Positions 50,331 to 57,504 of a stretch of 64,000 nucleotides of DNA are shown piece after piece. Each line of letters begins with the position of its first letter. Position 1 is the first letter of the stretch. Under the pieces are notes generated by a model. It made no database searches and was not told the origin of the DNA. It was given only the letters and a program-made list of their open reading frames with translations. A program made the translations under genes and the position numbers. The DNA comes from Prorocentrum cordatum (lineage: Eukaryota): NCBI GenBank assembly GCA_963575745.1, contig CAUYUJ010000055.1, positions 1-64,000 on the forward strand, read 5' to 3'.

Positions 50331-52038
50331 ATGTCTGATGTCTGATTTCTGATATATGATCTTCCAGGGAGGGGCAGAGATCAGAGAGGTGTGTGCGACG
50401 GTGGCCTCCAATGCGTGGGCGGGAAACGTATCCATATCCAAGCCCTGCTGGTCCGGGCTCTGACTCTGCGCGGACGCCCCGCATGGAGCGCACCCGTGGG
50501 ATCGCGCACCCCAGGAGTCGAGCCTCCCGCGAGAACACGGACATCGACACGGCTGCCGCTCGAAACCCATACACAGACACCGGACGATCGGGCCCGGAGG
50601 TGGCCCGATCCATCTTTGGCCCCGGAGCCCGAAAACTTTCCCGTGAGGCCGAAATTGAAGGGGCCCTGGGACACACAAATAAATACACACAAATAAAAAG
50701 ATTCCCCATATTTTCCTATATTTTCTGGGTTTTTGTCTTCCCCACCACTTCCCATATTTTCCCATATTCTCTGGGGGATCGAGGATTAATTGTGTCTGTG
50801 TGTTTCTTTTCCTCCTGAGAGATGGGGTCGGGGCAACCAGCGCCCCCAGCTGCAGCCCGCGACCCGGGCCGCGCGCGGCGTCAGAGGCCGTCCGCTGTGG
50901 ACGTCGGCGCATCTGCGTCGGCCGGGCGGAGCTCCGTGTAGCCGGCTGGGGACCGCCTGGCCCCCGCGATCGCGCTCCAGAAACAATCTGGCACCCGTGG
51001 TCGCTCGGCCACGCTCTGAGCTATGGGGGAGGCCCGGCAACGGCTGGACATAGACCTCCACAGGAAGAGCAGCGATGCCAGCGCACGGCTCCCCAGAATG
51101 AGTCGTGCGACAGTGTTCGCGGAACCCTCCGTGTGCCCGAGACCCTCCGTGTGAGCAGTCCGGCGTGTGTATGCGAAACCCTGTGTGTGGAATGTGTGGG
51201 ACTTGATTGTGTCTGGAACCCTGTGGAGCAACCCACCGCGCAACCCACCGCGAAAGGCGCGACCCACCACACACCACGCAGATCTCCACGAAAACCGCAC
51301 GGCGGCAACTGCCGCAACACGGCGCATTGGGCCAGTGGGTCACCGCGCAACTCCACGGCGACAACGACAAGACCCTGGCAGACTGGGCCACTTCCTCACG
51401 GCCCACCAAAGGATGACGCACCAGAACAGACACTTGGGAAAGGAAGAATAAACTTGCGTCGGGCTCGCCTCTCATGGGCAGGGCCTGCTTGGTTAGCCGG
51501 CAGAACCGACTGAAGAAGCACTGTCAGAAGGCTCGGAAGGCCTGCGGCCCTCTGGGAGGATGTTCTCTCAGCCCTCCCCGGAGGCACGGGAACCTTCTCA
51601 GAAGGCCAGAGGGCTTCTGAGAAGCCACCGCCCCCTTTCGCCCACGCGCAGAGGGGGGTAGGTGGAGGGGGAAAGGCTTCTTAGAAGCACCTCTGCTTCT
51701 TAGAAGCGGCGGGCCCTGTTTGTAGATGTGAGGCCCGCGCCTTCTCAGAAGCAGCCTGCCTCTGAGAAACCTTCCCCCCTCCCCCATACACCCTTGCGTG
51801 CGCCGCCAAGCTTTTGAGAGGGCCTCATCCTTCTCACCCCCCCACCCACCCCCCGCTCGCCGCCGAACAGTGCGGCGGCTGGCAAGGCTAGAGGCGCCCC
51901 CGCAGGGGAGGGGGCAGCGGCGCCGACCCAGGAAATCGGCGCGGACCTCTGAGGGTTCGTGCTTACGCCGTCGGCGAGTACACTCGAGTGACGCGATCGG
52001 CAGCCGGTCTCACGCGAGACGGCACGGCGGCCCCACGC

Positions 52039-52181
52039 TCAGGTCGGGCATGTCCCCCCACAGGCGATTCTTGGACGAAGAAAATACCCCAAGATTGTCA
52101 AACATCGTCAACACATCGTCCCAAGACTATGTTTAGACTATTTTTGAATACTCCTCCTGTAGAGGGACAGGCCCGACTTAA
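52039..52181 (+). mobile_element. MITE family 3 (TIR consensus TTAAGTCGGGC...GCCCGACTTAA)
   Basis: 8-bp flanks CCCCACGC / CCCTACGC. Confidence 0.8.
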
Positions 52182-52352
52182 CCCTACGCCGCAGCGCACG
52201 CGGGCCGCCAGCGCGGCACGCTGCACAGGAAACGAGGACGCTCACACGCGACCTCACGAGGGCAGCCGACGCGCCAACGTCGGCGAAGACGGCCCCGTGC
52301 TTCTGCACCGCTCGCCTGGACATTTGAGCAGCTGTCGCGTGCACCCCTGGCG

Positions 52353-52505
52353 TTAGGCCGGGCACGTCCCCCTACAGGCGAATTTTGGGCAGTGGTCCAA
52401 CAAAAAAATAAACGAAAGTCAAAAAGTGGTAGACAAATCGTCCCCTGACTATTTTTTCGCTATTCTTTTGAGTACTCTTCCGGCAGAGGGACGTGCCCGC
52501 CTTCA
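52353..52505 (+). mobile_element. MITE family 3 copy with a perfect 8-bp TSD
   Basis: CCCTGGCG at 52345-52352 and 52506-52513. Confidence 0.85.
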
Positions 52506-52679
52506 CCCTGGCGTGCTGACGCCCGCCGCCGTTGAGCACACCCTCAGACTGCCAGCGCTGCCGAGCACATCCTCTGCGTGCCGGTGGGCGCCAGCAGGCA
52601 GAGTGTGCCGCGCTGCTGCGAGCCCGGATCGCCGTCGCCAGGCCCAGCTGGCGGCTTCCGGAAACCCTCAACCCGAAGG

Positions 52680-52862
52680 CACTGTAAAACAGGGCTAGGA
52701 TCGGGATAAATCGCTCCAGAGCGTTCCGGAGCGCTTTCAGAGCGTTCCGGAACGCTCTGGAGCGGCCGCGGCGCCCAATACATCCTCCAAACCCGCCGAT
52801 TCTCAGAGATTTCGAGTTATCCCGATCCGATTTTGTCCCGACCTTCGCGTCGATTTACACTG
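52680..52862 (+). mobile_element. Family 4 MITE (CACTGTAAA...TTTACACTG). Identical 5'-truncated copy at 53627-53798 and diverged inverted copy at about 5934-6115.
   Basis: Direct sequence comparison. Internal CGCTCCAGAGCGTTCCGGA repeats. Confidence 0.8.
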
Positions 52863-53071
52863 TCCTCTCCTGGGGGGGGGGCGCGCCTGGCACCCCCGCC
52901 AGTTTCCGCCAGCTTCCTCCGGCGGAGCCGCCACCGTTTTGCTTCCACCGCCTCCCGCCGACCCTGCGCCGAGGAAGAGGCGGCAACTCTTCCGATCCGC
53001 GCAGGCGAGACCCTTTCTGGCACGCCTCCACCGTCTTCGCTGATGGCGTGTGCCGCTTCTTGCTACTCGGC

Positions 53072-53236
53072 TTAAGTCGGGACTGTCCCCCATACAGGGG
53101 GACTTTGGCAGACAGATCAGAAGATACCCAAAAAATACCCCCAGAGTGCTAAAAAAAATTAGTCCTAACACAGTCCCCAGACCATGCTCTGACTATCTTT
53201 GAGCCCTCCCCCTGTGGGGGCACAGGCCCGACTTGA
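53072..53236 (+). mobile_element. MITE family 3 copy flanked by a 40-bp direct duplication
   Basis: TTAAGTCGGG...CCCGACTTGA, with flanks 53033-53071 and 53237-53276. Confidence 0.8.
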
Positions 53237-53238
53237 GC

Positions 53239-53270
53239 CTTCGCCGATGGCGTGCGCCGCTCCCTGCTGC
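53239..53270 (-). CDS. Candidate 32-nt exon of gene B (GSRERRTPSAK if joined to the 55017 donor)
   Basis: CGAG|GC acceptor repeats the CGAG|GC donor at 55018. AAG|GC donor abuts a MITE end. The frame is ambiguous if 53806-53919 is also exonic. Confidence 0.35.
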
Positions 53271-56278: not shown

Positions 56279-56283
56279 CTTAG

Positions 56284-56449
56284 GTGGCGACATCCGAATC
56301 CTACCCCAACCAACCATCGATTTTCCTGAATCGGTGGGAGGCGGGTTCGGATTTCGCCGCGTGTCCGGCGGACTCCGAAACCTGCCCCCGCCGCCCAGCG
56401 AACTGCCCGACCCGCTGCTCGGCGAGGGCAGGGTTCGCACTTCGCCGCC
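56284..56449 (+). mobile_element. MITE (GGCGAC...CCTACCCC / GGGTTCG...TTCGCCGCC) abutting the acceptor of the long exon. Relative at about 39459-39631.
   Basis: Alignable copies with imperfect inverted termini. Confidence 0.65.
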
Positions 56450-56512
56450 GGAGGTCGGCGGCGAGCGAGGGGGGAAGTGAGGAGGAGAAGGCCTTCTTCG
56501 GGAATGGACAGA

Positions 56513-56665
56513 CCCCCCTTTAGTAAAACGTAGTTTAGTGAAAACGACCTGAGGCCCAAACCTGGCGGGCGCAAGCCTGGAAAATAACGGCCACGGCGCC
56601 CTCTCGAGAACCGAAAACGGACAAGTCGCTAATCGACGTGTCACTGTTGGGGGTTCTGTCCACCC
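56513..56665 (+). repeat. Interspersed repeat, second copy at about 61785-61936
   Basis: Shared ACGGCCACG.CGCCCTCTCG.GAACCGAAAACGG..AA.TCGCTAATCG. Confidence 0.7.
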
Positions 56666-56877
56666 CCGAGAGAAGTTTCCCCCGCCCCCCCCGAAGACAC
56701 AGAGAACGCTTCTGCACCCCCTCGGCAGGCGCGCGGGCCCCTGAGAGAAGCCCCCGCCGCCCTCCGAGAGAGGGCCTCCTCCTCCTCCCCCTCCTCCTCC
56801 TCCTCCTCCTCCTCCTCCTCCTCCTCCTCCTCCTCCTCCTCCTCCTGTTCGCTCGCCGCCGACGCGCCGCCGAAGGC

Positions 56878-57111
56878 CTTCTTCGCCTCCGACCATCCCC
56901 GCTCCCACTTGGCGTAGCCGTGCTGGCAGTCGAAGGGGGCCGTCGCCGCGGGGCGCGCGGGGTCCCGCGCCGGCCTCGGCGTCGACGAGGGCACGTGGGC
57001 CTTGGGCACGAAGGCCGTGCGGCCCGGCGCGGCGCGGGCGCCGCCCAGGCTCCCCGCCCCCTTCAGGTAGCAGGCCGCCCCGTAGTACACGGCCACGGCG
57101 CACTGGGCGTC
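56878..57111 (-). CDS. Gene B exon: C-terminal half of PAN domain 1 (DAQCAVAVYYGAACYLKG), linker and start of Cys/Trp repeat 1 (PFDCQHGYAKWERGWSEAKK)
   Basis: AG|GAC acceptor, AAG|GC donor, 234 nt, phase 0/0. Splicing completes CCQKCAE-DAQC and WSEAKK-AWCC. Confidence 0.85.
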
Positions 57112-57190
57112 CTCCCTCGTGGGCGAAAGGCAGATCTCCTCCTCCTCCTCCTCCTCCTCCTCCTCCTCCTCCTCCTCCTCCTCCTCCTCC

Positions 57191-57332
57191 TCGGGCATGA
57201 CCCCCTGCAGGCGGACTTGGGACGAGAAATAAAAAACGAAGAGGTTCAAAAGCAGTCCAAAGAATACTCAAAAAATCGTCCCCTGACTGTTTTGTTGACC
57301 GCTCCTCCTGTAGAGGGCCATGCCAGACTTAA
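57191..57332 (+). mobile_element. MITE family 3 copy
   Basis: TCGGGCATGACCCC...GAGGGCCATGCCAGACTTAA. Confidence 0.75.
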
Positions 57333-57504
57333 TCCTGGACCCAGGCACGCTCGCGCCGCGAGAAAAAAGACACGGAGGGCGGTTTGGGACCTATTCTTCG
57401 GCCTCCGGGTGCCCCCGCTGGACGCCAGGACCGTCAAAAAAACAGCCCAGGCTGAAAAGCTGGCACTGGGGAAAGGGTCGTCGTTTTGGTGACGTGTTCG
57501 TGGT

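What the first reader, a model, noticed from the sequence alone, without database searches (positions are those of the whole stretch)
52031..57340. MITE family that always sits at AG|GN on the gene strand: candidate Introner taking both splice sites from its target duplication
Seen: five family 3 copies lie within 5.3 kb, all in one orientation. On the minus (coding) strand each TIR is directly preceded by AG-G-N: TAG GG (52182), CAG GG (52506), AAG GC (53237), GAG GC (55016) and CAG GA (57333). Two copies keep an 8-bp TSD, one of them perfect (CGCCAGGG on the minus strand). Inference: duplicating NNNNAGGN places a donor AG|GN before the element and an acceptor AG|G after it, so splicing would remove the element plus one TSD exactly. 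Two copies start at predicted gene B donors. Established: Introner transposons generate introns in dinoflagellates, and 8-bp TSDs are typical of hAT-type transposases. Caveat: two of the sites would need a non-standard GG donor.
Basis: partly seen in the sequence, partly recalled or inferred. Interest (0 to 1): 0.8.

Follow-up and report, generated by a model that had tools for sequence, protein, structure and literature searches.

The report
Transposon that became an intron
A small mobile DNA element sits five times in one dinoflagellate gene, and RNA data show that one copy is spliced out exactly as an intron using the short sequence it duplicated on insertion, a mechanism already described in a related alga.

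Summary
Five copies of a ~145-165-bp inverted-repeat element lie at 52039-57332, all on the minus strand, each preceded by AGGN. Three of four testable copies keep an 8-bp target duplication (7/8, 8/8, 8/8).

Copy 4 spans 53903-55015, enlarged by a (CCT)n tract and a nested element. RNA contigs, an MMETSP transcript protein and the NCBI protein all join 55016 to 53894. That removes the element plus one duplication as a GC-AG intron, with both boundaries inside the repeat AGGCGAGGC.

The other four copies are not introns of their own. Copy 5 lies inside a 3,434-nt GA-AG intron. Copies 1-3 lie inside a ~2.84-kb intron. Copy 1 has lost the acceptor AG, and copies 1-2 would need GG donors.

A 100%-identical protein is labelled Prorocentrum cordatum by NCBI. 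Roy et al. described splice sites taken from an AGGH duplication, and 8-nt duplication classes, in Polarella. This is a new member of a known kind. It remains open whether AGGN beside the four passenger copies reflects target choice.

The parts
52039..52181 (-). Copy 1 (143 nt) of the inverted-repeat element. It is a passenger inside intron I4.
   Evidence: Profile hit E 3.8e-41. Ends TTAAGTCGGGC...GCCCGACCTGA. As RNA it folds into a long terminal stem, z -5.9. It lies between the exons at 53829 and 50988.
52182..52189 (-). Copy 1 upstream target duplication GCGTAGGG. Its partner GCGTGGGG is at 52031-52038.
   Evidence: 7 of 8 identical. The downstream copy has no AG.
52353..52505 (-). Copy 2 (153 nt). 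It is a passenger inside intron I4.
   Evidence: Profile hit E 3.9e-39. RNA fold z -5.35. Position relative to the exons.
52506..52513 (-). Copy 2 upstream target duplication CGCCAGGG. An identical partner is at 52345-52352.
   Evidence: 8 of 8 identical.
53072..53236 (-). Copy 3 (165 nt). It is a passenger inside intron I4. It has no clean 8-bp duplication and is flanked by a 38-nt direct repeat (53239-53276 and 53035-53071).
   Evidence: Profile hit E 3.4e-35. 8-mers match 4/8. The 38-nt repeat is 84% identical and occurs nowhere else in the window.
53903..55015 (-). Copy 4, the full element (1,113 nt). It comprises a 5' part at 55015-~54911, a nested unrelated MITE at ~54738-54910, a 3' subterminal piece at 54699-54726, a (CCT)n-rich tract at ~53922-54669 and the terminal repeat at 53903-53921.
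   Evidence: Profile hit on 55012-54880, with good homology to about model position 105. The subterminal piece aligns to copy 5, and the last 22 nt align to the ends of copies 1 and 2.
55016..55023 (-). Copy 4 upstream target duplication GGCGAGGC. An identical partner is at 53895-53902.
   Evidence: 8 of 8 identical. It is part of the 9-nt junction repeat AGGCGAGGC.
53897..55017 (-). Intron I3 of gene B, a 1,121-nt GC-AG intron equal to copy 4 plus one duplication. An equally valid placement is 53902-55022.
   Evidence: In runs X1, X5 and X11 the contigs leave the genome at 55016. The 30 further letters shown for X5 equal 53865-53894. Only two GH-AG placements exist. P0008 and P0009 read ...CCYRRG|PRPQRG... 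across it.
57188..57332 (-). Copy 5 (~145 nt). It is a passenger inside intron I0. Its 3' tip runs into (GGA)n, and its upstream duplication GTCCAGGA is at 57333-57340.
   Evidence: Profile hit E 1.1e-34. Flanks. Contigs splice across it.
57112..60545 (-). Intron I0 of gene B, a 3,434-nt GA-AG intron with the 5-nt boundary repeat GAGGA. It contains copy 5.
   Evidence: The loose end behind 57114 in X5 and X15 equals 60549 onward. The GH-AG placement is unique. P0008 maps to 60623-60543 and then to 57108.
50989..53828 (-). Intron I4 of gene B (~2.84 kb), containing copies 1-3 and two identical copies of another element.
   Evidence: P0009, an MMETSP transcript ORF, maps to 53894-53829 and then to 50988-50884, where it ends at the stop. 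P0008 maps to 53894-53826 and then to 50986.
55018..55225 (-). Gene B exon E3, which ends at the copy 4 donor.
   Evidence: Contig pieces cover 55016-55223 with 0 differences in X1, X5 and X11; X15 covers 55109-55223. Limits follow the GH-AG placement.

Best explanation
This is a family of short non-autonomous DNA transposons (MITEs). Each has terminal inverted repeats of about 25-30 bp (T-N-A-R-G-T-C-G-G-G-C...) and makes an 8-bp target duplication. The last four bases of the duplication read AGGN on the element's sense strand.

The duplication places AG|GN in front of the element and AG|GN behind it. An insertion into an exon in the sense orientation can therefore be removed by the dinoflagellate spliceosome, which accepts GC and GA donors as well as GT. 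The excised piece is the element plus one duplication, and the reading frame is restored.

Copy 4 does exactly this in the C-terminal coding part of a PAN-domain membrane-protein gene of Prorocentrum cordatum. It has since grown from about 150 nt to 1.1 kb through a microsatellite and a nested element.

The other four copies landed in, or now lie in, larger composite introns of the same gene. They leave with those introns and do not define splice sites of their own.

Shown: family membership, orientation, duplications, the exon joins and the intron limits. Inferred: that insertion created intron I3, since no empty site was seen, and that AGGN is the element's target choice.
For: - **Family:** five copies, one strand. 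AGGN precedes all 5 of 5.
- **Duplications:** 8-bp duplications in 3 of 4 testable copies. Flanks beyond them are unrelated, so these are separate insertions.
- **Copy 4 is a whole element:** it has both termini.
- **RNA contigs:** in 3 of 4 runs (X1, X5, X11) they break at 55016 and carry 243, 194 and 291 further letters. The 30 letters shown for X5 match 53865-53894 exactly. The fourth run, X15, does not reach that point.
- **Arithmetic:** the skipped 1,121 nt equal 1,113 + 8. Only two placements give GH-AG, and both use the duplication.
- **Independent proteins:** P0009 (MMETSP transcript ORF) and P0008 (NCBI, Prorocentrum cordatum) are 100% identical to the exon. Both read CCYRRG|PRPQRG across the join. 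A 60%-identical homologue, P0005, reads YYRRGPR there without an indel.
- **Neighbouring introns:** the other three RNA-joined introns of the gene also use GA or GC donors with AG|G acceptors. This fits published P. cordatum splice statistics of GT 24.7%, GC 51.4% and GA 23.8% (passages seen, PMC10666404).
- **Passenger status:** c5; c1-c3.
Against: - Only 1 of 5 copies is an intron by itself, so in this window the family behaves mostly as an ordinary intronic MITE.
- The junction letters were displayed for one run only (X5). All runs are contigs, which drop rare isoforms. Only X15 is on record as RNA.
- No intron-less allele, paralogue or orthologue was available, so intron gain by insertion is inferred from the exact element-plus-8 arithmetic.
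- The sample is five copies and no genome was held.
- In c1 and c2 the eighth base is G. That would give a GG donor, so an AGGN target does not guarantee a usable donor.
- Copies are only 51-74% identical to one another. The family is old and current activity is unknown.
Confidence: 0.75

Rival explanations
1. One reading: every copy of the family is, or was created as, its own intron, with AG|GN donors at 52182, 52506, 53237, 55016 and 57333.
For: All five copies are preceded by AGGN and lie in the sense orientation within one gene. Copy 4 behaves this way.
Against: Contigs from X5 and X15 join 57114 directly to 60549, across copy 5. P0009 and P0008 join about 53829 to about 50988, across copies 1-3. 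Copy 1 has GGGG instead of AGGG downstream. Copies 1 and 2 would need GG donors, whereas the published gene models use GT, GC or GA.
Confidence: 0.05
2. The 8-bp target is essentially random. AGGN is seen because only insertions that happened to bring usable splice sites on the transcribed strand survived selection.
For: Copy 4 lies in coding sequence, where an unspliceable insertion would destroy the protein. The motif is asymmetric: no CCT at positions 2-4 in 0 of 5 duplications. That is unexpected for a symmetric transposase complex (inference).
Against: Four of five copies with AGGN lie inside larger introns, where their own splice sites are not used in the dominant mRNA. Selection for spliceability is therefore not expected there. 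Two of them have a G at position 8, which gives no standard donor. A different MITE family in the same window shows no AGG before either end in the 5 full copies inspected by eye.
Confidence: 0.3
3. For copy 4 the splice sites are shifted five bases (intron 53902-55022). The donor GC is at duplication positions 2-3, and the acceptor AG is made of the element's last A plus the first G of the downstream duplication. Under this placement only part of the splice signal comes from the duplication.
For: This placement is also GC-AG and gives the same mRNA. All four intact element 3' ends finish in A, and 4 of 5 duplications begin with G. Multiple 'frames' per family are described for Polarella classes.
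Against: The sequence cannot distinguish the two placements. The AG|GC at duplication positions 5-8 is the feature shared by all five copies.
Confidence: 0.35
4. Copy 4 inserted into an intron that already existed, and the boundary repeat is a coincidence.
For: The other introns of this gene are composites that hold several elements.
Against: The intron contains nothing except the element and one 8-bp duplication, 1,121 = 1,113 + 8. The 8/8 repeat abuts both element termini.
Confidence: 0.03

Closest known systems
Polarella glacialis Introner-like element classes 14 and 13 (Roy et al., bioRxiv 10.1101/2020.10.14.339549; parts 1-2 of the text read)
   Same: Both the 5' and the 3' splice site are recruited from the target duplication, with the motif AGGH. 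The elements are TIR transposons in a dinoflagellate that uses GT, GC and GA donors.
   Different: Those classes make a 4-nt duplication, whereas this family makes 8 bp with AGGN at positions 5-8. The species and order differ (label Prorocentrum cordatum). Sequence relatedness could not be tested because the class sequences are in closed supplements.
Polarella glacialis classes 3, 6, 8 and 10, which make 8-nt duplications (same preprint)
   Same: An 8-nt target duplication, and splice boundaries placed at variable positions relative to the duplication. Class 3 creates introns in five frames.
   Different: Classes 6, 8 and 10 use GHN6: the donor sits at the start of the duplication and the acceptor is carried by the element. 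Whether one of the class 3 frames equals NNNNAGGH is not stated in the text I read. Those classes insert in both orientations, whereas here 5 of 5 copies are sense.
Florenciella Introners (Gozashti et al. 2022, PMC9860276; passages read)
   Same: These elements carry neither splice site and co-opt both from the insertion site.
   Different: The host is a stramenopile and the splice sites are canonical. No family relationship is claimed.
Introner elements of Aureococcus and Micromonas (Huff et al. 2016, seen only as cited)
   Same: These are MITE-like TIR elements with target duplications that generate introns on insertion.
   Different: There one splice site is carried by the element and the other comes from the duplication.
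'Introner elements' counted in the P. cordatum genome paper (Dougan et al. 2023, PMC10666404; passages and supplementary note read)
   Same: Same species label. That study counted introns with terminal inverted repeats plus short direct repeats, 2.4% of introns.
   Different: It was a generic pattern count (8-20-nt inverted repeats, 3-5-nt direct repeats). In the passages I saw there were no families, duplication logos or splice-site origins.

Membership tests
MITE (non-autonomous TIR DNA transposon) | Short, non-coding and multi-copy, with terminal inverted repeats | tested here: met
   Five copies of 143-165 nt (copy 4 secondarily enlarged). Terminal stems of about 25-30 bp with fold z-scores of -5.4 and -5.9.
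MITE (non-autonomous TIR DNA transposon) | Target-site duplication of fixed length with copy-specific sequence | tested here: met
   8 bp: 7/8, 8/8 and 8/8 in 3 of 4 testable copies, and each duplication has a different sequence.
Introner / Introner-like element | A copy makes up essentially a whole spliceosomal intron of a gene | tested here: met
   Copy 4 meets this: the intron equals the element plus 8 nt. The other four copies do not.
Introner / Introner-like element | Many introns across the genome derive from the same family | not testable with these tools
   No genome is held. The metagenome scan gave 0 true copies in 37 loci.
Introner / Introner-like element | Intron gain shown by an intron-less orthologue, paralogue or allele | not testable with these tools
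   Only protein-level colinearity with homologue P0005 across the site is available.
Polarella ILE class 14 | 4-nt target duplication AGGH | tested here: not met
   The duplication is 8 bp. Its last base is G in 2 of 5 copies.
Polarella ILE class 14 | Both splice sites recruited from the duplication | tested here: met
   Copy 4 has AG|GC in both duplication copies. A second placement also uses the duplication.
hAT superfamily | 8-bp target duplication | tested here: met
   This length is shared with other superfamilies (recalled), so it is not diagnostic.
hAT superfamily | Weak target consensus nTnnnnAn (recalled from the literature, not from a call) | tested here: not met
   Position 2 is T in 1 of 5 duplications, and position 7 is A in 0 of 5, being G in all.
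hAT superfamily | An autonomous partner with a hAT transposase and the same termini | not testable with these tools
   None of the 139 window ORFs of 90 aa or more hits a transposase family. The rest of the genome is not held.

The most novel reading that the evidence does not exclude
AGG at positions 5-7 of the duplication may be an intrinsic, orientation-coupled target choice of the transposition machinery. On this reading the element homes to proto-splice sites (AG|G) and is pre-adapted to become an intron wherever it hits an exon. Four of the five copies keep AGGN although they sit in larger introns where their own sites are not used. An asymmetric target coupled to element orientation would be unusual for a TIR transposon. 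It would give a direct mechanistic source for the dinoflagellate AG|G exon-boundary bias and for intron phase bias in a second dinoflagellate order.
Probability: 0.4. Interest if true: 0.55.

Novelty: new member of a known kind. Interest (0 to 1): 0.35.

Why it matters
This is a concrete case, supported by transcripts, of a transposon copy that is an intron, with both splice sites in the duplicated target. The host is a bloom-forming dinoflagellate, where such elements had only been counted by a generic pattern search.

The case also shows how a ~150-nt intron can grow to 1.1 kb through microsatellite expansion and nested insertion. That is relevant to this genome's very long introns, which average 4.7 kb.

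It does not open a new principle. Roy et al. and Gozashti et al. have already described recruitment of splice sites from target duplications.

Tried and rejected
- **Whole genome:** none is held, so no genome-wide duplication logo, orientation test or search for an autonomous partner was possible.
- **Metagenome scan:** a scan with a terminal-repeat pattern returned 37 loci. The family profile matched only the 22-30-nt pattern region in 19 of them and nothing in the rest, giving 0 of 37 true copies.
- **Earlier findings of this scan:** nothing by place, by sequence or by words.
- **Spliced-leader motif:** a recalled dinoflagellate motif has 0 matches in the window at up to 3 mismatches.
- **Pfam:** a scan of 139 ORFs found no transposase, only sub-threshold PAN hits in gene B and a few sub-threshold chance hits.
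- **First protein search:** restricted to 192-613 aa, it gave only 26-60%-identical homologues. The 'longer' search found the identical proteins.
- **My own 3' intron prediction:** I predicted the last intron from boundary repeats, with donor at 53806 and acceptor at 50956. It was wrong. The transcript-derived protein puts the limits at about 53829 and 50988.
- **Zero contig depth:** there is no depth over 54690-54971 and 57134-57490 in all four runs. I do not count this as evidence of absence. The claims rest on contigs that join across these stretches.
- **Hairpin folds:** these are expected of any MITE and do not show a role in splicing.
- **Stepwise splicing of nested copies:** I considered that the intronic copies might be removed stepwise as nested introns. 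Contigs cannot test this, and it is disfavoured for copies 1 and 2 by their GG donors.
- **AGGN as part of the element:** rejected. It lies inside the copy-specific duplications of copies 1, 2 and 4, and the 3' ends show no matching NCCT.
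Full report
**What is there.** The window is GC-rich, packed with microsatellites and short repeat families, and has one 100-N gap. A profile built from the five reported copies finds exactly those five, all on the minus strand. Scores run from E 3.2e-28 to 3.8e-41, and nothing else scores better than E 3.8 except the copies' own palindromic plus-strand echoes.

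Read on the minus strand, every copy begins T-N-A-R-G-T/G-C-G-G-G-C, and the intact 3' ends are the inverted complement ending in A. As RNA, copies 1 and 2 fold into long terminal stems, with z -5.9 and -5.4 and 0 of 200 shuffles folding as well. Copies are 51-74% identical to one another, so the family is old.

**The AGGN observation and the duplications.** The eight bases before the element are:
- c1 GCGTAGGG
- c2 CGCCAGGG
- c3 GCGAAGGC
- c4 GGCGAGGC
- c5 GTCCAGGA

The eight bases after it are GCGTGGGG (7/8), CGCCAGGG (8/8) and GCCGAGTA (4/8) for c1-c3. AGG occupies positions 5-7 in 5 of 5 copies. Its background frequency on this strand is 0.021-0.055. The AGG lies inside copy-specific duplications, so it belongs to the target and not to the element.

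Copy 3 is instead flanked by a 38-nt direct repeat, 84% identical and found nowhere else in the window. I cannot explain this.

**Copy 4 is much larger than reported.** The family profile matches 55012 down to about 54907 and then stops. An unrelated MITE is nested there, at about 54738-54910, with sister copies at five other places.

The subterminal part of copy 4 resumes at 54726-54699, where it matches copy 5 at 25 of 28 aligned columns (two small gaps). Next comes a ~750-nt (CCT)n-rich tract. The last 22 nt of the element, at 53924-53903, align with the ends of copies 1 and 2. Directly beyond lies GGCGAGGC again, at 53902-53895, an 8/8 match to 55023-55016. The element is therefore 53903-55015, or 1,113 nt.

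**RNA evidence.** Twenty public runs hold part of 54690-57490, none more than half of its words, as expected for spliced RNA. I laid four runs from four studies. X15 is on record as poly-A RNA, X5 is guessed to be RNA, and X1 and X11 are of unknown kind. All four are contigs.

One contig per run (1,326-1,667 nt) covers 55016-55223, 55431-56274 and 56874-57114 with no differences. The two internal joins appear in 4 of 4 runs.
- **Low end.** The contigs of X1, X5 and X11 leave the genome exactly at 55016 and carry 243, 194 and 291 more letters. X15 starts at 55109. The 30 letters shown, for X5 only, equal window 53865-53894.
- **High end.** The letters shown for X5 and X15 behind 57114 equal 60549 onward.

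I enumerated every placement allowed by the boundary repeats:

| Intron | Coordinates | Length | Type | Boundary repeat |
|---|---|---|---|---|
| I0 | 57112-60545 | 3,434 nt | GA-AG | GAGGA |
| I1 | 56279-56877 | 599 nt | GC-AG | AAGGCCT |
| I2 | 55226-55432 | 207 nt | GA-AG | CGAGGA |
| I3 | 53897-55017 | 1,121 nt | GC-AG | AGGCGAGGC |

I0, I1 and I2 each allow a single G[T/C/A]...AG solution. I3 allows a second GC-AG placement, 53902-55022.

I3 is the element plus one duplication, 1,113 + 8. In the second, the acceptor is the element's final A plus the first G of the duplication.

**Independent confirmation and the gene.** Two database proteins are 100% identical to exon E2. One is an NCBI entry labelled 'unnamed protein product, partial [Prorocentrum cordatum]' (P0008). 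The other is a complete MMETSP transcript ORF (P0009).

Mapped back peptide by peptide, both read ...CCYRRG (55016) | PRPQRG... (53894) across copy 4. A 60%-identical homologue, P0005, has YYRRGPR at that point with no indel.

The protein has repeated W..GWS..KK.WCC modules, PAN domains and a hydrophobic stretch that I read by eye as membrane-spanning. Copy 4 splits a glycine codon (G|GC) in the cytoplasmic tail.

**The other four copies.** Copy 5 (57188-57332) lies inside I0. The exon upstream of E1 is at 60546 and higher, not at 57333.

P0009 continues from 53829 to 50988-50884 and ends at the stop. P0008 goes from 53826 to 50986. Copies 1-3 (52039-53236) are therefore inside a ~2.84-kb intron, I4, together with two 100%-identical copies of another element. 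My earlier prediction of this intron's limits was wrong.

Copy 1 has no AG in its downstream duplication, and copies 1 and 2 would need GG donors. So in the dominant transcripts only one of five copies is an intron in its own right. Contigs cannot exclude rare isoforms.

**How it most likely works.** An 8-bp staggered cut at NNNNAGGN, followed by sense-strand insertion, gives exon-AG|GN-element-NNNNAG|GN-exon.

The dinoflagellate spliceosome accepts GC and GA donors and prefers AG|G acceptors. Published P. cordatum figures are GT 24.7%, GC 51.4%, GA 23.8%, with AGG at 79.7% of acceptors (passages seen). Such an insertion is therefore removed precisely when N is C, A or T.

The exon joins and the boundaries are shown. 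That the insertion created I3 is inferred from the exact arithmetic, since I had no empty site.

Why AGGN also precedes the four passenger copies is open. Target choice is the simplest reading. Selection is not expected inside introns, and another MITE family in the window shows no such flank. However, the motif is asymmetric, the sample is five, and AGG is 2.3 times commoner on this strand locally (0.055 against 0.024). That alone would put all five copies on one strand about one time in six (my arithmetic).

**Comparison with what is known.** Roy et al. (preprint text read) describe 15 Introner-like classes in Polarella glacialis:
- class 14 recruits both splice sites from a 4-nt AGGH duplication;
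- class 13 does so in one of its frames;
- classes 6, 8 and 10 use 8-nt GHN6 duplications;
- class 3 has an 8-nt duplication and five frames.

Gozashti et al. 2022 show Florenciella elements that co-opt both sites. The P. cordatum genome paper only counts introns with terminal inverted and direct repeats, at 2.4%. Two full-text searches for Prorocentrum with 'introner' returned seven papers each, six listed. Of these I read only the genome paper and a 2024 review, and neither gives a family-level description in the passages I saw.

The finding is therefore a new family and a new host lineage for a known mechanism. It is not hAT by any test I could run: there is no transposase in the window, and the recalled hAT target consensus is not met.

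**Verdict.** This is a new member of a known kind, of moderate interest.

Noticed in passing
window 55226-55432 (intron I2) and 20053-20252: Intron I2 is almost entirely a ~195-bp palindromic MITE of another family, with ends GAGGAACGAAG...CTTCGCTCCCC and a TA/TG flank. Its sister copy has TA on both sides. Here the GA-AG splice sites lie a few bases outside the element, in a 6-nt repeat CGAGGA. Reading the locus without the element would leave 9 extra in-frame bases, so intron creation may have cost three codons (inference). RNA contigs pile up on this family, with summed depth up to 12,040.
   Followed up: partly
window 50989-53828 (intron I4 limits): The limits implied by the MMETSP transcript protein (…RPTS | DCFW…) share only CAG and allow no G[T/C/A]...AG placement; the options are GC..CA or CG..AG. 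The NCBI model shifts the donor by two bases to get GC-AG. It thereby changes the frame and loses the C-terminus that homologue P0005 conserves (GYTEL...). This could be a non-canonical splice, a strain difference or an annotation error.
   Followed up: partly
window 53239-53276 and 53035-53071: Copy 3 is flanked directly by a 38-nt direct repeat (84% identical, unique in the window) instead of an 8-bp duplication. The upstream repeat ends in AAG|GC and the downstream one in AAG|AC.
   Followed up: partly
window 52691-52875, 53627-53811 and 5939-6107: Two 185-nt copies of another element are 100% identical, and both lie inside intron I4. A third copy is 92% identical. This family looks recently active.
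   Followed up: no
window 53922-54669 and 57137-57190: Triplet microsatellites have grown out of or onto the element termini. A ~750-nt (CCT)n tract starts in the C-run of copy 4's terminal repeat, and (GGA)n replaces the last bases of copy 5. This illustrates how short transposon-derived introns can lengthen.
   Followed up: partly
window 56279-56877, 57112-60545 and the other RNA-joined introns: All four RNA-joined introns of gene B use GA or GC donors (0 of 4 GT). They carry 5-9-nt direct repeats spanning AG|G at both boundaries, which suggests they too arose from insertions that duplicated their target.
   Followed up: partly
window 59898-59963: Inside intron I0 there is a degenerate duplicate of the exon at 60540-60626, reading ...VPSGADCC..., i.e. 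a pseudo-exon.
   Followed up: no
protein P0009 residues 1-296: The MMETSP transcript is 100% identical to gene B from the E2 acceptor onward. Its first 296 residues map nowhere in the window. It joins E2 at the same ...KKA|WCC... point, which suggests an alternative 5' part or a very recent paralogue.
   Followed up: no
window 56532, 56586 and 56593: RNA contigs show A>G differences at these three places in most runs. They lie in a repeat inside intron I1 that is abundant in RNA, so they probably come from paralogous copies. Editing is not shown.
   Followed up: no
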